A program made the position numbers and the translations under genes. The notes under the pieces are model-generated. The model was not told the DNA's origin, ran no database searches, and was given only the letters and a program-made list of their open reading frames with translations. Of a stretch of 64,000 bases of DNA, positions 1,514-10,135 are shown in pieces. Source of the stretch: Chloroflexota bacterium. GTDB lineage: Bacteria > Chloroflexota > UBA11872 > VXOZ01. The first letter of the stretch is position 1. Each line of letters opens with the position of its first letter. Location: assembly GCA_965220175.1 (NCBI GenBank), contig OZ244814.1:300992-364991 (forward strand). The letters are read 5' to 3'.

Positions 1514-1793
1514 ATTCGCTCTTTTTCTGCGGAAGTCGCGTGTGGGCTTGCGCGGGCAGCGGCCCGCTTAGCCTTATTCTATCCCGCACAGCGCACAGGG
1601 GCAAAAGCGGTACGCTCAAGCCGGTAGCATGGGTCTCTAACCCCGTATGGAGTGCGGGACAGGCTCCGCGCCCGACAAAGGGCTGCCATGCGCCGGTTAC
1701 GTAGGTTCTCAACCTGCGCCCTGCAAATGCTGTACGTGCAAAGAGACACACAGTATCATGTGATTTGAATACGCACATGAGGGAGCATAACCG

Positions 1794-2084
1794 ATGGCAG
1801 TGCGACAGAGAGTATGGCAACCGGAGGTTTCGTGGCGCGCCTTTCGCAAGGAACTACCCAATGACTGGTGCCTGCGCATCAATGAACGCTACACGGTGCC
1901 GTTCGCCAATGGCTACGTCTTGCAGATAACCCGTGCGGAGCACAATGACGACGGCTGGGAGTGCGCGCTCGAGCGCCGGGGCCGCATCGCGAAGCACCCT
2001 GACTTTCCCTATGGGCCGCAGTTGATCATGGAAGAGACTGAGGTCGATGCCCTGGTTGAGCGTGTCGCGGGCTATCCTAGCTAG
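1794..2084 (+). CDS. hypothetical small protein (96 aa)
   Basis: ORF with a GGGAG-like RBS upstream in a locally lower-GC segment. Composition looks protein-like (W, Y, F, C present). No recognisable domain. Confidence 0.35.
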   Translation: MAVRQRVWQPEVSWRAFRKELPNDWCLRINERYTVPFANGYVLQITRAEHNDDGWECALERRGRIAKHPDFPYGPQLIMEETEVDALVERVAGYPS

Positions 2085-2228
2085 TACGTAACAGCCGTAC
2101 CATAGCAAGGCGGCCAGAGGTTCGCTAGGGTGCATGGGCCGGTTGGATTGTACTCCTCTAAGACCGATGGGGGTCTGCAACTGGAAGCCGGTCTCCCTTT
2201 TGGAAATCGACATGCAAGCGGAAGCGAG

Positions 2229-2324
2229 TCCGTCACTCCGGCGAACGCCGGAGTCCAGGGAAAAGAGCCGGAGAAGATGGATTCCGCGCCCCCGTACGGG
2301 GTCGAGCTTTCGCGGGAATGACGG
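2229..2324. repeat. Family A composite hairpin repeat (TCCGGCGAACGCCGGA module plus GGATTCC...CGCGGGAATGACGG module)
   Basis: Direct sequence match to copies at 11301..11355, 13665..13736, 29988..30452, 35983..36012, 41587..41781 and 58656..58702. It has perfect short inverted repeats around 4-nt loops. Confidence 0.8.
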
Positions 2325-2410
2325 ATTGTGTCGCGCTTGACTTCTGCTGCCGGAGACCTAGGTGCTTCTAAGCCAATCTCAACTCCGCGTGATGCTGAAA
2401 GGAACCGTCC

Positions 2411-3472
2411 GTGCCGATTGTCACCGCTGATGCCTTGCGCCAAATCGGCCGGGAGTTCTTTATTGCCTTAGGCTGTCTTCCTGATGACGCTCAGATTGTT
2501 GCCGACCACCTGGTGCAGTCGAGCCTCTATGGGCACGATTCCCACGGCATTCTGCGCATGTACGAGTATGCGGACGCCGTGAGCGAAGGACGCGTCCACC
2601 CCCAGAATGCGCCCGAGATCGTAAGCGAAAGCCCGTGCACGGCGGTGATCGACGCCAACGACGGCTTTGGACAAGTGGGCGCGACTCTGGCCGCCACCAT
2701 GGCGATCGAAAAGGCGCGGCAACACGGGCTGGCGAGTATCACCTTGCGCAGAGCAAGCCACATCGGCCGGGCGGGAGAATACCCCGCCATGATCGCTCGC
2801 GCCGGACTGATTGGCACGGCCTACGTCAACTTCGGTCGCTTGGGCATTCAGGTGGCGCCCTTTGGCGGCATTGACGGCCGCCTGGCGACGAATCCGCTGG
2901 CTTTCGCCGCGCCCCGCCGCGACGCTCCGCCCATCATGGTGGACATGACGACGAGCACCGTCGCCGACGGCAAGATCCGTTTGGCTACCAATCTCGGGAA
3001 GCCGCTGCCGGAGGGTTGGATCCTTGATGCGGACGGCAAACCCAGCACGGACCCGCACGACTACTTTGCCGAGCCGCGCGGGGCAATCCTGCCGCTGGGC
3101 GGCCCGCTCGGCCATAAGGGCTACGCGCTGTCTATGATGGTGGAACTCTGCGCCGGGGGCCTGAGCGGTCAGGGCATGGCTTCCGGCGACCCGCGAGCGC
3201 CCGCCAATGCCTTCCTGCTTACCGCCTACAACATCGAGCACTTTACGGACATGGAATTCTTCTACGAAGAGGTGGAAGCCCTGGTCGGCCACGTCAAGTC
3301 GAGCCGCACCGCGCCGGGCGTGACGGAGATACTCTTACCCGGCGAGCCGGAGTTTCGCACCGAGCGTGAGCGCAAACAGTCGGGCATCTCCATCGACGAT
3401 ACCACCTGGGATAGGGTCTGCGCCGCGGCGCGTGACATCGGCCTCGATCCAACTTCCTGGGATTTCGCCTGA
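2411..3472 (+). CDS. Ldh_2 family (malate/L-lactate dehydrogenase family 2) NAD(P)H-dependent oxidoreductase, paralog 1
   Basis: GTG start with AAAGGA RBS. Conserved DSHG, HIGRAGEYP, FGGIDGRLATNPLAFAAP and GGPLGHKGYALS blocks typical of the ureidoglycolate / sulfolactate / pyrroline-2-carboxylate reductase family. Its antisense ORF 2468..3292 is judged spurious. Confidence 0.85.
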   Translation: MPIVTADALRQIGREFFIALGCLPDDAQIVADHLVQSSLYGHDSHGILRMYEYADAVSEGRVHPQNAPEIVSESPCTAVIDANDGFGQVGATLAATMAIEKARQHGLASITLRRASHIGRAGEYPAMIARAGLIGTAYVNFGRLGIQVAPFGGIDGRLATNPLAFAAPRRDAPPIMVDMTTSTVADGKIRLATNLGKPLPEGWILDADGKPSTDPHDYFAEPRGAILPLGGPLGHKGYALSMMVELCAGGLSGQGMASGDPRAPANAFLLTAYNIEHFTDMEFFYEEVEALVGHVKSSRTAPGVTEILLPGEPEFRTERERKQSGISIDDTTWDRVCAAARDIGLDPTSWDFA

Positions 3473-4656: not shown

Positions 4657-5721
4657 GTGCCTACCGTAACCGCTGAAGCCCTGCGCCGCATTGGCTACGC
4701 CTTCTTTGAAGCGCTGGGCTGCCGACCGGATGATGCCCGCATCATTCAGGACCATCTTGTCCAGTCCAATCTCTACGGCCATGACTCCCACGGCGTGGTG
4801 CGCATGGAGCAGTACTGGCACGCCGTGCGGGAAGAGGGTGTGGTTGACCCGCAAGCGGCGCCGGAAGTCGTGCGTGAACACCCGTGCACCGCGGTCGTGG
4901 ACGCGCATCACGGCTTCGGTCAGGTGGGCGCGGTGTTTGCCACGAAGCTCTTGATAGAGAAGGCGCAACAGTACGGCATCGCCAGTGTCTCGCTGCGCAA
5001 TACGAGCCACATCGGCAGAGTGGGCGAGTATCCGCACATGGTCGCGCAGGCCGGCATGATCGGGCTGATTTTTGTCAATGCGGGGAGGCTGGGCTTTCAG
5101 GTCGCGCCCTTTGGCGGTATCGACGGCCGGCTGGGCACGAATCCACTCGCATTTGCCGCGCCGCGGCGCAACGATCCGCCCTTTTTCGTGGACTTGACGA
5201 CGTCCACCGTCGCCGACGGCAAGATCAAGATAGCCGCTAACGAAGGTAAGCCCTTGCCCGAGGGCTGGATTGTCGATGCGGATGGCAACCCCAGCACGGA
5301 TCCCAGCGACTACTGGGACGAGCCGCGCGGGGCTGTGCTGCCGGTGGGCGGCCCTTTGGGACACAAAGGCACTGCGCTGAGCATGCTGAATGAGATCTGC
5401 GGCGGCGGATTGAGCGGACAGGGCATGTCGGCCGGCGACATGCGAGTGGACAGCAACGGCGTGCACATGACCGCCTACGACATCGGGCAGTTTGTGGAGC
5501 CGGAGTTCTTCTATGACGAGATCGATACGCTCATCAGCCACGTGAAAACCAGCCGCCCGGCTGCCGGCGTGGACGAGGTCCTGGTCGCCAGCGAGCCGGA
5601 GTACCGCGCGCAGCGTGAGCGCGAAAAGACGGGCATCCCTATCGACGAAACGACGTGGAGCAAGCTCTGCGACGCTGCCCGCGACCTGGGATTGAAACCG
5701 GATACCTGGGTACTGGCCTAG
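4657..5721 (+). CDS. Ldh_2 family oxidoreductase, paralog 3
   Basis: GTG start with AAGGAG RBS. Same family blocks. The 409-aa antisense ORF 4552..5781 is judged spurious. Confidence 0.85.
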   Translation: MPTVTAEALRRIGYAFFEALGCRPDDARIIQDHLVQSNLYGHDSHGVVRMEQYWHAVREEGVVDPQAAPEVVREHPCTAVVDAHHGFGQVGAVFATKLLIEKAQQYGIASVSLRNTSHIGRVGEYPHMVAQAGMIGLIFVNAGRLGFQVAPFGGIDGRLGTNPLAFAAPRRNDPPFFVDLTTSTVADGKIKIAANEGKPLPEGWIVDADGNPSTDPSDYWDEPRGAVLPVGGPLGHKGTALSMLNEICGGGLSGQGMSAGDMRVDSNGVHMTAYDIGQFVEPEFFYDEIDTLISHVKTSRPAAGVDEVLVASEPEYRAQREREKTGIPIDETTWSKLCDAARDLGLKPDTWVLA

Positions 5722-5981: not shown

Positions 5982-7052
5982 ATGCCGGTTGTGCCGACTT
6001 TCACAGCAAATACCTTGCGCCGCATCGGCGAAGAATTCTTGATCGCCCTGGGATGCCGTCCAGCAGACGCGCAGCTTGTGGCCGATCACCTTCTTCAGTC
6101 AAACCTCTTCGGCCATGATTCCCATGGTGTTTTGCGTTTGTATGAATATGCCCGCGCCGTGCATGAAGGACGCCTCGATCCCTTGGGTTCGCCGGAAATC
6201 GTGAGCGAACACGCTTGCACGGCGGTCGTGGACGCGCACGACGGCTTCGGCCACGTGGGCGCGGCTCTGGCAACCAAGCTGGCGATCGAGAAGGCGCGGC
6301 AGCATGGCTTGGCAAGCGTTTCGCTGCGCCGCGCGAGCCACATCGGCCGGGCGGGAGCGTATCCCCTGGTGATGGCCCAGGCAGGCATGCTCGGTGTGGC
6401 CTACGTCAACTCCGGCCGCATGGGATTCCAAGTAGTGCCGTTCGGCGGCATCGACGGTCGCCTTGGCACCAATCCGCTGGCCTTCGCCGCGCCCCGCCGC
6501 GCCGACCCGCCCATCATGGTGGATATGACGACCTGCACCGTTGCCGACGGCAAGATCCGCGTGGCCACCAATCTCGGCAAACCGCTGCCGGAGGGCTGGA
6601 TCATCGATAAGGCAGGCAATCCCAGCACGGACCCGCAAGTGTATTGGGAGGAACCGCGCGGCGGAATCTTACCTCTCGGCGGTCCGCTCGGGCACAAGGG
6701 CTATGCGCTCAGCTTGATGATGGAACTCAGCGCCGGCGGGCTGAGCGGACACGGCATGTCTTCGGGCGACATGCGCTCACCCGGCAACGGTGCGCTGTTC
6801 ACCGCATACGACATCGCCCACTTCACTGACCTGGACTCCTACTACGACGAGGTTGAGGCCATGGCAAGGCACGTCAAGTCAAGCCGTCCCGCGCCGGGCG
6901 TGACTGAGATATTCCTGCCCGGCGAGCCGGAGTTCCGCACGGAGCGCGAGCGTAAGCAAACAGGCATCTCCATTGACGAGACTACATGGGCAAAGCTCTG
7001 CGAATCCGCTCGCGAACTGGGCCTGGATCCTGGCGCTTGGTGGAATCCGTAA
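5982..7052 (+). CDS. Ldh_2 family oxidoreductase, paralog 4
   Basis: Same family blocks. Most similar to paralog 1. The start may be the in-frame GTG at 5991 rather than ATG at 5982. Confidence 0.8.
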   Translation: MPVVPTFTANTLRRIGEEFLIALGCRPADAQLVADHLLQSNLFGHDSHGVLRLYEYARAVHEGRLDPLGSPEIVSEHACTAVVDAHDGFGHVGAALATKLAIEKARQHGLASVSLRRASHIGRAGAYPLVMAQAGMLGVAYVNSGRMGFQVVPFGGIDGRLGTNPLAFAAPRRADPPIMVDMTTCTVADGKIRVATNLGKPLPEGWIIDKAGNPSTDPQVYWEEPRGGILPLGGPLGHKGYALSLMMELSAGGLSGHGMSSGDMRSPGNGALFTAYDIAHFTDLDSYYDEVEAMARHVKSSRPAPGVTEIFLPGEPEFRTERERKQTGISIDETTWAKLCESARELGLDPGAWWNP

Positions 7053-7245: not shown

Positions 7246-7527
7246 ATGGACGCAAAGCAAGCAGTGCAAGAAGCAAAAAACTACATATTGGATCTCTTTG
7301 AAGGCGAAGACATCGAATATGTCGGCCTCGAGGAAGTAGAGTTCGACCACGAATCTGAAGAGTGGAAGGTTACCCTAGGCTTCTCGCGCCCTTGGGATCG
7401 TCCCAAGTCACTTTCGGTTGCGCTGCGCGACGAGCCGCTTAGGCGCTCCTACAAATTAGTTCGTATAGACGACACTACGGGTAAAGTCACATCTGTTAGG
7501 GACCGCGCCCTGGTGACCGCAAGATAG
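7246..7527 (+). CDS. hypothetical acidic small protein (93 aa), candidate partner of downstream PIN nuclease
   Basis: GGAGG RBS. Preceded by a low-GC leader with a TATAAT hexamer at about 7212..7217. Stop is 5 nt before the PIN gene start. No known antitoxin fold recognised. Confidence 0.5.
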   Translation: MDAKQAVQEAKNYILDLFEGEDIEYVGLEEVEFDHESEEWKVTLGFSRPWDRPKSLSVALRDEPLRRSYKLVRIDDTTGKVTSVRDRALVTAR

Positions 7528-7532
7528 GTTCG

Positions 7533-7997
7533 ATGCCGACACCAGGTGTCTTCATCGACACGAACCTCCTATTGCTCCTCGTCGTGGGCAGTGCCGACAA
7601 GGCCATAGTTGCGAAACACAAGCGGCTAAAGGGTTACACGGCAGAGGATTACGATACTCTTCTCGACCTACTCGATCTCTTTCCCCAAGTCCTAGTCACG
7701 CCCCACACGCTCGCGGAGACCTCCAATCTCCTTGCGCAACACAACGATCCCGAGCGAACCCGGCTGTTTGGGCAACTCCGTTTCCTCATCCATGAATGTA
7801 AGGAAGTGGCAATTGCAGGTACCGTCGCTGCAAACAACAGTGCGTTCCCGCAGCTTGGACTGACAGACTCGGCTCTATTGGAGGTGGTAGCGCCTGAATC
7901 TCCGCTGCTCACTGTCGACTGGGGGCTATTCCAGCAGGCATTGGCAAGAGGATCGGACACGGCGGTCAATTTCACGGATTTTCGGGGACTCGATTGA
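7533..7997 (+). CDS. PIN-domain ribonuclease (VapC-like)
   Basis: N-terminal VFIDTNLLLLLVVG plus downstream conserved acidic residues (LAETSN, LTDSAL, TVDWG) match the four-acidic-residue PIN active site. Confidence 0.7.
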   Translation: MPTPGVFIDTNLLLLLVVGSADKAIVAKHKRLKGYTAEDYDTLLDLLDLFPQVLVTPHTLAETSNLLAQHNDPERTRLFGQLRFLIHECKEVAIAGTVAANNSAFPQLGLTDSALLEVVAPESPLLTVDWGLFQQALARGSDTAVNFTDFRGLD

Positions 7998-8121: not shown

Positions 8122-8790
8122 TCAAAACAAGCTGAGTTGATCGTCAGCAGGCTCATCGGCGGCAGCAGCGGATTCCGCGGGTGCCTCCTGCTTCTGCTCA
8201 AAGTACCCATCGGCCTGTAGTTCCTTCAGGCGTTTGGCTATGGCGGGGAGCCGTTGCACGTCTTCGAAGAGCATCTGCTTGATGGCGGGAGTGCGCAATC
8301 CGGCGGCGGGATGGTAGAAGGGCACGTAGGCGCGGCCGTCGGCGAACTTGGGTTCGCCGTGCACGGCGGAAATTTTGGCGCCGGGGAAGAAGCGCGCCAG
8401 TGAATAGCGGCCGAGCGTGACGACGATGCGCGGGTCGATGGCGGCAAGCTGGCGTTCGAGAAACGCGTTGCAGGCGGCGATTTCGTCCGGCTGGGGATCG
8501 CGGTTGCCGGGCGGGCGGCACTTGACGACGTTGGTGATAAACACCTGCTCGCGCCGCAAACCCACCGCCTCCAGCATCTCCTCCAGCAGCTTGCCCGCCT
8601 GGCCGACAAAGGGCCGCCCCTGCTGGTCTTCGTGAAACCCCGGCCCCTCGCCGATGAACATGATGCCGCTCTTGATGGCGCCCTCACCCGGGACGGCCTT
8701 GGTGCGCTGCTCACACAAACGGCACGCCGTGCACCGTCGCACTTCCGCGCCAATTGCGTCCAACACTTGCTCAGGGGATTCTGCCGCCAC
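8122..8790 (-). CDS. uracil-DNA glycosylase, family 4 (4Fe-4S type)
   Basis: GEGPG motif, CTAC...C cysteines, VVKCRPPGNRDP and HPAA motifs characteristic of family 4 UDG. Confidence 0.85.
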   Translation of the reverse strand: MAAESPEQVLDAIGAEVRRCTACRLCEQRTKAVPGEGAIKSGIMFIGEGPGFHEDQQGRPFVGQAGKLLEEMLEAVGLRREQVFITNVVKCRPPGNRDPQPDEIAACNAFLERQLAAIDPRIVVTLGRYSLARFFPGAKISAVHGEPKFADGRAYVPFYHPAAGLRTPAIKQMLFEDVQRLPAIAKRLKELQADGYFEQKQEAPAESAAAADEPADDQLSLF

Positions 8791-8930: not shown

Positions 8931-8990
8931 GTGTTTCCGTTCGTGCTGAGGGCTGCGTGAAGCCTTTGTCGCAGTACGAACAGAAACACG
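8931..8990. repeat. Inverted pair of family B repeat (GTGTTTCCGTTCGTGCTGAG ... CAGTACGAACAGAAACAC) forming a long hairpin
   Basis: The two arms are near-perfect reverse complements separated by about 20 nt. The core CCGTTCGTGCTGAG recurs at other family B sites. Confidence 0.6.
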
Positions 8991-9074: not shown

Positions 9075-9383
9075 ATGGACACAACGTATCGTGGTACTCT
9101 AGCTAAAGGATTACCGAGGAGGCACCCAACCGTGACACAAGAGCGCCGAGAGGACCAACTCGCCCGCTTTCAGCGGGACGCCGACTACTTTGAGTCGCAC
9201 TACGAGCAACTCCTGCGAGAGTACCCCGAGCAGTGGGTTGCAGTCTTCAATCAGACCGTCGTGGGAACCGCCTCGGATTTCGATGCACTGCTTGAAACTC
9301 TGGATCAAGCTGGAATACCTATCGAGAGAGCCTTGATCGAGCGCGTTACCGCCGAGGAAGATATCCTCATTCTGCATACATGA
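9075..9383 (+). CDS. DUF5678-like small protein, translationally coupled to downstream aspartic protease
   Basis: C-terminal EQWVAVFNQTVVGTASDFDALLETL resembles DUF5678-type small proteins (assignment from memory, uncertain). The more likely start is in-frame GTG at 9132, preceded by a GAGGAGG RBS at 9116..9122. The stop overlaps the next gene (ATGA at 9380). Confidence 0.5.
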   Translation: MDTTYRGTLAKGLPRRHPTVTQERREDQLARFQRDADYFESHYEQLLREYPEQWVAVFNQTVVGTASDFDALLETLDQAGIPIERALIERVTAEEDILILHT

Positions 9384-9844
9384 TACGCGGCTACTTCCTC
9401 TCCCGTGGCGGCATACGTCGCCCGTTCGTGTCGGCCCGCTTCCAGTTCCCCTCTTTGGACAACCAGATTCTAGAAACACGACTGCTGGTCGACTCTGGTG
9501 CTGACAGCACTGTTCTTGCCCCTCGGGACAGTAAACGGTTGATGCGGCAAGTTGGGCTTGAATTTAGCACTTTGACCGCGACAAAGCCGGGGGCAGGCGT
9601 GGGCGGAAAAGTCAAGATGCGCACGCTAGAGGCTATCATGACCATCCCGCCCTACTCGATACCGCTAACTCTGACCCTATTGGAGCCAGAACCAGGAGAC
9701 ATATCTCCGCTCCCTTCCTTGCTGGGGCGCGACATTCTTTCCCACTTTGCCCTTTTCATGCAAGAACGAACCGGGCAGCTTCTCCTACTCGAACCGGAGG
9801 AAACCCGCGCGGCCGGTGTATTCGAGCGCATTCCCTCAACGTAG
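9380..9844 (+). CDS. retropepsin-like (clan AA) aspartic peptidase
   Basis: LLVDSGADSTVL is the hydrophobic-hydrophobic-D-S/T-G-A active-site motif of retroviral-type aspartyl proteases. Size 154 aa, consistent with a dimerising single-domain protease. Confidence 0.6.
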   Translation: MIRGYFLSRGGIRRPFVSARFQFPSLDNQILETRLLVDSGADSTVLAPRDSKRLMRQVGLEFSTLTATKPGAGVGGKVKMRTLEAIMTIPPYSIPLTLTLLEPEPGDISPLPSLLGRDILSHFALFMQERTGQLLLLEPEETRAAGVFERIPST

Positions 9845-10135
9845 TTATCCTTACACGAGGCTGTATGGGAATGCTCCGCACAGGCTAGCTAGTGGCCGTA
9901 ACCGGCCTAGTTTGCCCACATCCCGCGCCGATTGCGTCGTGCGACGGCTTGTGCGGCTACGAAACGATACCGGTACTTGCACGGCTTGTTGAAATAGGTT
10001 TGCTCGCGCGCGTAGCCATTCTTAACCAGCCACTCATTGGCCAACCCACCGAATTAAGGGGGATTTAACACGTTGAAACCACGAGGCACTCGTGCATTGA
10101 GAGAATGCACGAGTGCCTCAGAGTATTGCGAAACT

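What the first reader, a model, noticed from the sequence alone, without database searches (positions are those of the whole stretch)
9075..9844. Translationally coupled DUF5678-like small protein and retropepsin-like aspartic protease
A small protein is encoded at 9075..9383. Its more likely start is the in-frame GTG at 9132 with a GAGGAGG RBS, giving about 83 aa.

Its stop overlaps the start of the next gene by ATGA. That next gene is a 154-aa protein carrying the retroviral-type aspartyl-protease active-site motif LLVDSGADS.

Free-standing retropepsin-like proteases are uncommon in bacteria. Pairing with a small partner protein suggests a regulated protease/inhibitor or toxin-antitoxin-like two-gene unit.

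The pair sits beside the PIN module and a family-4 UDG, in a region with the look of an accessory patch.
Basis: partly seen in the sequence, partly recalled or inferred. Interest (0 to 1): 0.6.

Follow-up and report, generated by a model that had tools for sequence, protein, structure and literature searches.

The report
Retropepsin-like protease with DUF5678 partner
Two overlapping genes encode a small HIV-protease-like enzyme and a small partner protein of unknown function; the two are almost always found together in uncultured bacteria, nobody appears to have described the pairing, and it most likely works as a protease kept in check by its own partner.

Summary
Gene 9132..9383 (83 aa, GTG start, GAGGAGG 9 nt upstream) passes Pfam's threshold for DUF5678. 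Gene 9380..9844 (154 aa) is a retropepsin-like aspartic protease by sequence profile and by predicted fold. The genes overlap by ATGA.

The pairing is near-obligate in both directions. Starting from the protease, 81 of 102 copies in 79 genome loci have a detectable partner directly upstream, and the rest have diverged partners in tandem arrays. Starting from the partner, 30 of 32 metagenome genes with room downstream are followed by the protease. The two proteins co-diverge (r = 0.84). No third gene is conserved. Flanking genes differ between lineages.

The partner family has about 2,200 clusters at 50% identity. Its predicted fold matches no solved structure. It has a striking hallmark: 75% of members end exactly in a hydrophobic ...T-M/L-I-L-COOH tail, and longer tails usually continue with Pro.

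I infer a self-contained cassette in which the partner's tail binds and restrains the homodimeric protease, like an antitoxin or a pro-segment acting in trans. This is untested. Known defence models, plasmids and phages give no hits, and no DNA-binding domain is detected. The neighbouring "PIN" call is not confirmed.

The parts
9116..9122 (+). Shine-Dalgarno-like GAGGAGG, 9 nt upstream of the GTG start of the small gene
   Evidence: Read directly from the sequence.
9132..9383 (+). Small partner gene: 83 aa, GTG start, TGA stop. It is a DUF5678-family protein, acidic (pI 4.3), with no signal peptide or membrane segment.
   Evidence: Pfam DUF5678 scores 26.1 bits against a 23.2 threshold. Close homologues are 83 aa. 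The model has pLDDT 86.7 with helix-helix-strand-strand-helix-strand topology. pI and hydropathy are. dN/dS is 0.21-0.33.
9207..9308 (+). DUF5678 core, residues 26-59: LLREYPEQWVAVFNQTVVGTASDFDALLETLDQA. It includes the family-invariant Trp35.
   Evidence: Pfam match coordinates. Trp35 is invariant in alignments A2 and A3.
9351..9380 (+). C-terminal tail of the partner, residues 74-83 (AEEDILILHT). It contains the family hallmark hydrophobic I-L end, here followed by a 2-residue extension (HT). It is the proposed protease-binding element.
   Evidence: Model confidence is lower here, with block means of 74 and 61. Ile80 and Leu81 are nearly invariant. 236 of 316 family members end exactly at the hydrophobic triplet. 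Among the 80 with an extension, the first extra residue is Pro in 30.
9380..9383 (+). ATGA start/stop overlap between the two genes (translational coupling). No separate ribosome-binding site lies at a useful distance from the protease ATG.
   Evidence: Sequence. The same -4 overlap occurs in 42 of 81 pairs in other genomes and in 38 of 63 clean pairs.
9380..9844 (+). Retropepsin-like (clan AA) aspartic protease gene: 154 aa, pI 9.3, no signal peptide or membrane segment.
9491..9505 (+). Catalytic motif Asp38-Ser-Gly-Ala-Asp42. This is D(T/S)GAD; Asp38, Gly40 and Asp42 are invariant in the 21-sequence alignment A1 (Asp38 also in the 91-sequence A4).
   Evidence: It aligns to the DTGAD of FIV protease.
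9596..9607 (+). Flap-tip motif Gly73-Val-Gly-Gly76. Gly73 and Gly75 are invariant and Gly76 nearly so.
   Evidence: It aligns to the GIGG flap of FIV protease. It lies in the hairpin formed by strands 66-73 and 76-89 of the model.
9719..9733 (+). Leu114-Leu-Gly-Arg-Asp118, the retropepsin 'GRD/GRN' helix motif. It is preceded by the invariant Pro112 and Ser113.

Best explanation
This is an autonomous two-gene cassette. The downstream gene makes a soluble cytoplasmic retropepsin-like aspartic protease. Like other retropepsins it should be active only as a homodimer, with one Asp38 contributed by each chain.

The upstream gene is translated first and is coupled to the protease gene through the ATGA overlap. 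It makes the protease's dedicated DUF5678 partner.

I propose that the partner binds the protease through its conserved, flexible, hydrophobic C-terminal tail (...T-M/L-I-L-COOH; ...ILIL-HT in this window). The tail would occupy the substrate cleft like the P-side of a substrate or a cleavage product, or alternatively occupy the terminal-strand dimer interface. Either way it holds the protease inactive. Where the tail carries a short extension, usually starting with Pro, the protease may trim it at Leu|Pro.

Loss or displacement of the partner would free the protease to cut cellular or invader proteins. The cassette would then behave like a type II toxin-antitoxin pair, or like a protease with a pro-segment supplied in trans.

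**Shown:** gene identities, protease fold, intact catalytic motifs, near-obligate pairing, co-divergence, autonomy of the cassette, and the tail hallmark.

**Inferred:** dimerisation, partner-protease binding, inhibition, tail-in-cleft geometry, trimming, and any toxic or defensive role.
For: **The protease is real and looks catalytically competent.**
- Retropepsin profile and fold matches.
- In the 21-sequence alignment A1, Asp38, Gly40, Asp42, Gly73, Gly75, Gly76, Pro112, Ser113, Gly116 and Asp118 are invariant; in the 91-sequence A4 only Asp38, Gly73, Gly75, Pro112 and Gly116 are invariant, the other five being nearly so.

**Both proteins lack signal peptides and membrane segments**.

**The pairing holds in both directions.**
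- 81 of 102 protease copies in 79 loci have a recognisable partner directly upstream.
- Nearly all of the other 21 lie in tandem arrays, where the intervening ORFs are diverged partners with the same architecture.
- Four distant partner proteins looked up independently are all followed by a protease.
- 30 of 32 partner genes sampled from metagenomes by a partner-only DNA pattern, with room downstream, are followed by a protease. One further case is a degraded copy.
- No protease was found without a partner ORF, whereas extra partner copies do occur (L004, L006).

**The two proteins co-diverge.** Mirror-tree r = 0.84, Mantel p <= 0.001. The partner is the faster-evolving protein, with mean identity 30% against 40%.

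**The cassette is autonomous.** No neighbouring family recurs in more than 3 of 41 protease groups, and flanking genes differ completely between lineages.

**It is often multi-copy.** Several loci per genome, and arrays of 3-5 units.

**It evolves faster than its neighbours.** dN is 0.20-0.23 against 0.05-0.07 for the adjacent UDG and dapA genes at similar dS. GC is 57% against 61% for the window.

**The tail is a family hallmark.**
- 236 of 316 partners end exactly in a hydrophobic triplet. TMIL and TLIL are the commonest endings.
- Extensions begin with Pro in 30 of 80 cases.
- Family matches run to the last residue in nearly all of the top 150 representatives.
- The tail is the least confident part of the model, which fits a segment that folds on binding.

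**Established retroviral-protease knowledge (not tested here).** These enzymes bind extended hydrophobic peptides, and hydrophobic|Pro is a classic retroviral cleavage-site type.
Against: - There is no direct evidence that the two proteins bind each other.
- Neither protein matches PADLOC defence models or PHROGs.
- There are no copies on 72,556 plasmids or 50,697 phages, and only 1 hit in 2.9 million IMG/VR contigs.
- The pair sits at the same position in three related genomes, so it is not obviously mobile on short time scales.
- The acidic-partner/basic-protease contrast seen in this window does not hold across the families.
- A hydrophobic C-terminus could instead be a degradation signal for another protease, or simply the last strand of the fold.
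Confidence: 0.4

Rival explanations
1. Dedicated substrate. The small protein is the protease's one physiological substrate, a pro-protein. The protease matures it, for example by trimming the C-terminal extension or removing the N-terminal helices, and the processed small protein is the active product.
For: - The pairing is near-obligate and the two proteins co-diverge.
- The conserved tail looks like a retropepsin site, and its extensions often start with Pro.
- No other conserved partner exists in the neighbourhood.
Against: - 75% of family members already end at the I-L terminus with nothing to trim.
- The small protein shows no recognisable effector domain or fold.
- Neither a secretion signal on either protein nor any recurrently linked downstream gene is present.
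- A one-substrate protease kept in tandem arrays of 3-5 diverged units is hard to rationalise.
Confidence: 0.2
2. Positive cofactor. The small protein is an activator, an assembly chaperone or a substrate adaptor. It is needed for the protease to fold, dimerise or find its targets, and is not an inhibitor.
For: - No protease gene occurs without a partner.
- The partner is made first from the same mRNA.
- The protease N-terminus (MIRGYF) and C-terminal strands are highly conserved, and these are the dimer-interface elements of retropepsins. A partner strand could complete that sheet.
- The cassette is chromosomally stable in related genomes and absent from plasmids and phages. This fits a housekeeping-type accessory function.
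Against: - Characterised retropepsin-like enzymes such as the retroviral proteases, APRc and RloA dimerise and act without a separate cofactor (background from PMC4140852 and PMC11957051).
- Protein evolution is 3-4 times faster than in the neighbouring genes.
- The multi-copy arrays and fully variable contexts look more like a conflict or selfish cassette than a housekeeping enzyme.
Confidence: 0.2
3. Retroelement relic. The pair is the remnant of a Gag-Pro-like piece of a mobile retroelement or virus.
For: - The protease has a retroviral-type fold.
- The small upstream ORF sits in the -1 frame relative to the protease. This is superficially like a retroviral gag/pro junction.
Against: - No reverse transcriptase, integrase or capsid-like gene appears in any called neighbourhood.
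- No neighbouring family recurs.
- Only 1 hit was found in IMG/VR and none in phage records.
- There is no slippery heptamer before the stop codon.
- Both genes are under purifying selection in ordinary chromosomal settings.
Confidence: 0.02

Closest known systems
Bacterial retropepsin-like proteases: APRc/ApRick of Rickettsia (PDB 5c9f, 5c9b, 5c9d; PMC4140852)
   Same: It is the best structural match to the model: Foldseek E 5.7e-6, TM 0.60/0.69. It has the same single-domain D(T/S)G fold, expected to act as a homodimer.
   Different: - APRc is a membrane-anchored, surface-exposed enzyme of an intracellular pathogen and has no dedicated small partner gene (PMC4140852).
- The protein here is soluble with no signal or membrane segment.
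- Sequence identity is only about 19-21%.
- The window protein scores far below the NCBIfam clan_AA subfamily cut-offs.
Retroviral protease with its upstream transframe/p6* segment (HIV-1 Gag-Pol)
   Same: - Same fold and motifs: DTGA, GxGG flap and GRD/N helix.
- From my own knowledge, not tested here: the segment just upstream of HIV protease restrains the enzyme through its C-terminal residues until it is cleaved at a hydrophobic|Pro site. This resembles a partner encoded just upstream that ends in a hydrophobic tail, sometimes followed by Pro.
   Different: - Here the two are separate polypeptides from overlapping genes, not one polyprotein.
- No frameshift signal is present.
- The partner is a folded 80-100-aa domain, not a disordered linker.
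- There is no sequence relationship to p6*. The analogy is functional and unproven.
Type II toxin-antitoxin modules
   Same: - Small upstream gene overlapping a larger downstream gene.
- Autonomous two-gene unit in variable contexts.
- Several copies per genome and tandem copies.
- The partner evolves faster than the enzyme.
- Extra 'orphan' partners occur but no orphan enzyme.
- Elevated dN relative to neighbouring genes.
   Different: - I know of no toxin-antitoxin family with an aspartic-protease toxin, and none was found in the literature searches.
- The partner lacks a recognisable DNA-binding domain.
- No PADLOC hits.
- No plasmid or phage copies.
- Toxicity and neutralisation are untested.
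RimB and RloA retropepsin-like peptidases of Pseudomonas (PMC11957051)
   Same: - They are bacterial clan AA dimeric peptidases encoded in small operons with functionally linked partners.
- RimB is cytoplasmic and both RimB and RloA cleave poly-glutamate substrates in vitro (PMC11957051).
   Different: - Their operon partners are different: the ATP-grasp ligases RimK/RloC and the transglutaminase-like RloB.
- RloA is secreted.
- Neither protease surfaced among the sequence or fold hits here.
- No ATP-grasp gene is linked to the present pair.
Ddi1-type retroviral-protease-like domains of eukaryotes
   Same: Significant profile and fold matches to the Ddi1 RVP domain: PDB 2i1a and 4z2z at E about 1e-4, and 4rgh, 3s8i and 7d66.
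   Different: - Ddi1 carries ubiquitin-like and UBA domains and works in ubiquitin-dependent proteolysis.
- The present protein is a bare protease domain with a separate DUF5678 partner.

Membership tests
Retropepsin-like aspartic peptidase (clan AA; Pfam Asp_protease_2 / RVP / gag-asp_proteas) | Catalytic D-(T/S)-G-(A) motif | tested here: met
   Asp38-Ser-Gly-Ala at nt 9491-9502. Asp38 is invariant across 91 family members, Gly40 across the 21 of A1 and nearly so in A4. The motif aligns to the DTGA of FIV protease.
Retropepsin-like aspartic peptidase (clan AA; Pfam Asp_protease_2 / RVP / gag-asp_proteas) | Glycine-rich flap hairpin and the C-terminal G-R-D/N helix motif | tested here: met
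   G73-V-G-G76 and L114-L-G-R-D118 are conserved and aligned to GIGG and LLGRD of FIV protease. The flap hairpin is formed by strands 66-73 and 76-89 of the model.
Retropepsin-like aspartic peptidase (clan AA; Pfam Asp_protease_2 / RVP / gag-asp_proteas) | Retropepsin fold | tested here: met
   The model has pLDDT 88.6 and pTM 0.82. The top 21 Foldseek hits against the PDB are all retropepsin-fold proteins: ApRick, the EIAV, HIV-1, FIV, RSV and HTLV-1 proteases, and Ddi1.
Retropepsin-like aspartic peptidase (clan AA; Pfam Asp_protease_2 / RVP / gag-asp_proteas) | Score at or above the curated Pfam gathering threshold | tested here: inconclusive
   The window protein is just below the threshold on all three models: 23.7 against 24.3, 19.8 against 20.7, 20.4 against 28.2. 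Many homologues at 40-88% identity carry precomputed PF13650 or PF13975 hits, and some are named 'retropepsin-like aspartic protease' by NCBI.
Retropepsin-like aspartic peptidase (clan AA; Pfam Asp_protease_2 / RVP / gag-asp_proteas) | Homodimeric enzyme with pepstatin-type-sensitive proteolytic activity | not testable with these tools
   This needs protein biochemistry. Only a monomer could be modelled.
NCBIfam clan AA subfamilies TIGR03698 (DTGF) and TIGR02281 (DTGA) | Score at or above the curated cut-off | tested here: not met
   15.3 bits against 57.35, and 13.1 bits against 57.95. The protein is not a member of either named subfamily.
Pfam DUF5678 (PF18929) | Score at or above the gathering threshold over the domain core | tested here: met
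   26.1 bits against 23.2, residues 26-59 matching model positions 1-34 of 49. 36 of 41 partner homologues also match, best E 5.5e-11.
Type II toxin-antitoxin system | Compact two-gene operon with the small gene upstream, tightly coupled, and behaving as an autonomous unit | tested here: met
   ATGA overlap. It is conserved in 42 of 81 pairs. No conserved third gene exists, and contexts vary.
Type II toxin-antitoxin system | Antitoxin carries a DNA-binding domain (RHH, HTH, AbrB or Phd/YefM) that autoregulates the operon | tested here: not met
Type II toxin-antitoxin system | Toxin arrests growth, and the antitoxin neutralises it by direct binding and is the more labile protein | not testable with these tools
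   This needs expression and toxicity assays. Complex modelling was not possible.
Type II toxin-antitoxin system | Association with mobile elements or defence islands, or a match to known toxin-antitoxin or defence models | tested here: not met
   There are no PADLOC or PHROGs hits. Plasmids and phages gave nothing, and IMG/VR gave 1 locus in 2.9 million contigs. Caveat: the host phyla are poorly represented in those collections.

The most novel reading that the evidence does not exclude
DUF5678 plus retropepsin-like protease is a widespread and previously undescribed class of toxin-antitoxin-like or abortive-infection-like cassette. Its effector is an aspartic protease, and its inhibitor works as a product or substrate mimic through a C-terminal ...T-M/L-I-L-COOH tail. 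This would be a prokaryotic counterpart, acting in trans, of the way retroviral proteases are restrained by the segment encoded just upstream of them.
Probability: 0.3. Interest if true: 0.75.

Novelty: new variant of a known kind. Interest (0 to 1): 0.55.

Why it matters
**It gives DUF5678 a first functional context.** The family would become the dedicated partner of a cytoplasmic retropepsin-like protease. No paper in the searchable library discusses DUF5678 or PF18929 in prokaryotes, or links retropepsin-like proteases to toxin-antitoxin or defence systems.

**Few bacterial clan AA peptidases have been characterised** (PMC11957051). This cassette is abundant in Chloroflexota and several other uncultured phyla, with about 2,200 partner clusters at 50% identity.

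**If the partner is an inhibitor,** this would be, to my knowledge, the first toxin-antitoxin-like module with an aspartic-protease effector. It would also be a natural protein inhibitor of a retropepsin with a simple, transferable tail motif, which bears on the evolution of protease regulation in retroelements.

**The hypothesis is cheap to test.** It involves two small soluble proteins, a point mutant (D38N) and a tail deletion.

Tried and rejected
1. **Complex modelling.** The only natural 'fusion' (P0047, 231 aa) turned out to be a frameshift in a 2.46x long-read contig, with the partner's tail replaced, so it is neither Rosetta-stone evidence nor a usable proxy.
3. **Known systems.** PADLOC, PHROGs and NCBIfam gave nothing significant for either protein.
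4. **Mobile elements.** Plasmid and phage tblastn searches gave nothing, and IMG/VR gave a single locus.
5. **RNA or regulatory features around the pair.** There is no Rfam hit and no sigma-70-like promoter. The leader is not unusually structured (z = -0.83). One 18-nt inverted repeat remains unexplained.
6. **Metagenome scans with partner alignments.** These failed because no stretch was conserved enough. A degenerate YPKQWVA DNA pattern replaced them.
7. **Pfam census of neighbours through a pseudo-alignment.** This was abandoned as too large. All-against-all clustering of neighbours replaced it.
8. **Retroelement-relic and programmed-frameshift readings.** Both were rejected: no reverse transcriptase or integrase neighbours and no slippery site.
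9. **The source record.** Looking up P0001 returned nothing. The organism is inferred only as a Chloroflexota relative of L012 and L001, from 87-92% identical flanking proteins.
Full report
**1. What is in the sequence**

The + strand carries an ORF at 9075..9383 and an ORF at 9380..9844.

In the first ORF, the in-frame GTG at 9132 lies 9 nt downstream of GAGGAGG (9116-9122). It gives an 83-aa product. That is the length recorded for the identical public protein P0100 and for most of its close homologues. I take 9132..9383 as the gene.

Its TGA stop (9381-9383) overlaps the ATG (9380-9382) of the 154-aa gene. No ribosome-binding site sits at a useful distance from that ATG, so the second gene is probably translated by coupling to the first. 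That last step is inference from the sequence.

Both genes are under purifying selection against two related genomes, dN/dS 0.21-0.33.

**2. Identity of the 154-aa protein**

- Three Pfam retropepsin models hit residues 32-123 just under their thresholds.
- Homologues at 40-88% identity carry precomputed Asp_protease_2 or gag-asp hits. A few are named 'retropepsin-like aspartic protease' by NCBI.
- A 21-sequence family profile finds the FIV, EIAV and RSV proteases, Ddi1 and the Rickettsia enzyme ApRick in the PDB at E about 1e-5 to 1e-4. The alignment puts DTGAD, the GxGG flap and LLGRD in register.
- In that 21-sequence alignment Asp38, Gly40, Asp42, Gly73, Gly75, Gly76, Pro112, Ser113, Gly116 and Asp118 are invariant; across 91 sequences Asp38, Gly73, Gly75, Pro112 and Gly116 stay invariant and the rest nearly so.
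- The AlphaFold model is confident (pLDDT 88.6, pTM 0.82). Its best 21 Foldseek hits in the PDB are all retropepsin-fold proteins, led by ApRick (E 5.7e-6).
- The protein has no signal peptide or membrane segment.

It is a soluble retropepsin-like protease with an intact catalytic apparatus. It is not a member of the named NCBIfam subfamilies TIGR03698 or TIGR02281, where it scores far below the cut-offs.

**3. Identity of the 83-aa protein**

It passes Pfam's threshold for DUF5678, 26.1 bits against 23.2. So do 36 of 41 partner homologues from other genomes.

The model (pLDDT 86.7) has two N-terminal helices, a beta-hairpin carrying the invariant Trp35 (motif YPxQW-V-A), a helix and a third strand. 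It ends in a less confident 10-residue tail.

No solved structure matches it:
- by sequence;
- by Foldseek, best E 0.16.

It has no recognisable DNA-binding fold.

An exhaustive profile search finds 2,218 clusters at 50% identity with E <= 1e-3, and 601 with E <= 1e-10. Nearly all are 90-100 aa, and the match runs to the very last residue.

**4. The pairing**

*Starting from the protease.* A scan of one genome per species returned 79 loci. Most are Chloroflexota or Dehalococcoidia MAGs. Others are Latescibacterota, Binatia, Gemmatimonadota, Fimbriimonadia, an alphaproteobacterium and an actinomycete.
- In these loci, 81 of 102 protease copies have a recognisable partner homologue ending at the protease start.
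- 42 of those have exactly the ATGA overlap. Most of the others are 0-11 nt apart.
- Nearly all of the 21 'unpaired' copies sit in tandem arrays of 3-5 units in Dehalococcoidia (L057, L068, L074, L078).
- There, the ORFs between proteases encode a diverged protein of the same architecture (...FDDLLREHRGRLVVVYGDxQVLIGDD...), with marginal hits to the partner profile.

*Starting from the partner.*
- Four distant partner proteins (21-31% identical) are each followed by a protease homologue, even where the public gene calls missed it.
- Among 114 metagenome stretches matching a degenerate YPKQWVA pattern, 36 carry 37 partner genes between them. Of the 32 with at least 300 nt downstream, 30 are followed by a protease. 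One has a degraded protease start on a 1x contig. One (L114) is followed by an RNA-ligase-like gene instead.

*Other properties of the pair.*
- Pairwise identities of partner and protease across 63 clean pairs correlate at r = 0.84 (Mantel p <= 0.001). The partner is the more divergent protein, 30% against 40% mean identity.
- No neighbouring family recurs in more than 3 of 41 protease groups.
- The flanking genes are unrelated housekeeping genes in each lineage.
- The one apparent fusion protein (P0047) is a frameshift in a 2.46x contig.

**5. Local context**

The pair lies between a UDG gene (8122..8790, minus strand; 123 bits on Pfam UDG) and dapA. It holds the same position in two related Chloroflexota MAGs, L012 and L001.

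The rest of that interval differs between the three genomes:
- The two-gene unit at 7246..7997 is absent from both relatives.
- L012 has an intact thermonuclease-like gene, where the window keeps only a 45-aa remnant at 9907..10044 (minus strand).
- L001 has about 3 kb of other genes.

At similar synonymous divergence, the pair's dN (0.20-0.23) is three to four times that of UDG and dapA (0.05-0.07). Its GC is 57% against 61% for the window. The pair is inherited vertically over short distances but evolves like an accessory or conflict-type module.

Neither protein matches plasmids or phages, and the protease finds only 1 locus in IMG/VR. PADLOC and PHROGs also give nothing. The host phyla are poorly represented in those collections.

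**6. The tail**

Of 316 partner proteins whose match reaches the end of the profile, 236 stop exactly at a hydrophobic triplet.
- Over 257 partner-family proteins of 70-130 aa, the consensus end is I-D-x-x-x-R-T-(M/L)-I-L-COOH.
- Leu is last in 193 of 257, Ile is second-last in 182, Met or Leu is at -3, and Thr is at -4.
- Among the 80 with a short extension, the next residue is Pro in 30, Ala in 13 and Ser in 11.
- The window's clade reads ...E-D-I-L-I-L followed by HT, PT, PS or PA.

The ATGA overlap only forces the last codon to end in A. It does not force Leu, so the motif is selected.

From established knowledge of retroviral proteases, these enzymes bind extended, mostly hydrophobic peptides. 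Hydrophobic|Pro is a classic retroviral cleavage type. In HIV-1, the segment encoded just upstream of the protease restrains it through its C-terminal residues. These are recalled facts, not tests.

**7. Most likely mechanism**

I commit to a self-contained protease-plus-restraining-partner cassette.
- The partner is made first and in at least equal amount.
- It binds the homodimeric protease through its C-terminal tail, as a substrate or product mimic in the cleft, or as an added strand at the dimer interface. This keeps the protease inactive.
- Removing the partner releases proteolysis.

Shown: identities, fold, intact active site, near-obligate pairing, co-divergence, autonomy, fast evolution and the tail hallmark.

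Inferred: binding, inhibition, geometry, trimming and any toxic or defensive outcome.

I give this 0.4. The rivals are:
- the partner is the dedicated substrate (0.2);
- the partner is an activator, chaperone or adaptor (0.2);
- the pair is a retroelement relic (0.02).

The remainder is for functions I have not thought of.

**8. Comparison with what is known**

The protease is a new member of a known kind (clan AA, retropepsin-like). It is closest in structure to APRc/ApRick, but it is soluble and only about 20% identical (PMC4140852).

The operon logic resembles type II toxin-antitoxin modules, but two typical features fail when tested. The partner has no DNA-binding domain. There is no link to mobile elements or known defence models.

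It also differs from the RimB/RimK and RloABC operons of Pseudomonas, whose partners are ATP-grasp and transglutaminase-like proteins (PMC11957051).

The papers I could search contain no discussion of DUF5678 or PF18929 in prokaryotes. None links retropepsin-like proteases to toxin-antitoxin or defence systems.

**9. Verdict**

The new result from this stage is that the pairing is near-obligate in both directions, widespread, autonomous, and marked by a conserved C-terminal tail. That yields a concrete, cheap-to-test hypothesis.

I rate it a new variant of a known kind, interest 0.55.

Noticed in passing
window 9907..10044 (-); L012 4528..5094 (-): A 45-aa ORF (MANEWLVKNGYAREQTYFNKPCKYRYRFVAAQAVARRNRRGMWAN) is the C-terminal remnant of a thermonuclease (SNase)-like gene. 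That gene is intact at 188 aa at the same position in the related MAG L012. The window lineage has therefore suffered a deletion between the protease gene and dapA.
   Followed up: partly
It has no significant hit in Pfam, NCBIfam, PADLOC, PHROGs or PDB sequences. Only the N-terminal VFIDTNLLLLL motif looks PIN-like. The unit is absent from the syntenic regions of L012 and L001.
   Followed up: partly
window 8931-8948 / 8972-8989: An 18-nt inverted repeat (89% complementary, 23-nt loop) lies in the intergenic region between UDG and the small gene. It has no Rfam match, and the surrounding leader is not unusually stable (z = -0.83). It could be an operator, a terminator for an upstream transcript, or nothing.
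   Followed up: partly
L037 (1095..6189), L057 (2989..6112), L068, L074, L078: Some Dehalococcoidia MAGs carry head-to-tail arrays of 3-5 diverged partner-plus-protease units. One genome (OZ251457) has two such arrays. In the most diverged arrays the partner is only marginally detectable by the family profile.
   Followed up: partly
L004 3259..4441; L006 3113..4441: The arrangement here is partner-partner-protease. Two different partner paralogues (tails ...LLILAS/PS and ...ELFIL) precede a single protease. In L040 the same two partner types each have their own protease.
   Followed up: no
L114 (minus strand; locus reverse-complement coordinates 1751..3177): This is the one clear exception to the pairing. 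A partner-family gene ending ...PQTIIL is followed by a 369-aa RNA-ligase-like ORF (motif EKIHGTS) rather than a protease.
   Followed up: no
L080 4001..4696 (protein P0047): The 231-aa 'DUF5678-protease fusion' in the public protein collection is a frameshift in a 2.46x-coverage long-read contig. The partner's last 11 residues are replaced by out-of-frame sequence. It is an assembly artefact, not a natural fusion.
   Followed up: yes
window 4657..5721 and 5982..7052 (+): Two tandem paralogous genes (about 67% identical) look like Ldh_2-type malate/L-lactate dehydrogenase family proteins, judged from memory of the family. L012 has the same tandem arrangement. I did not run them against Pfam.
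   Followed up: no
L004 412..3181 (-), L040, L061, L075: The most recurrent neighbour of the pair, in only 3 of 41 protease groups, is a large protein with an HD-domain-like N-terminus and a Bergerat-ATPase-like motif (ELLQNAIDT). In another clade (L027, L032, L038, L041, L080) a DUF87/HerA-like ATPase lies nearby. These are possible defence-type neighbours, but too infrequent to count as part of the module.
   Followed up: no
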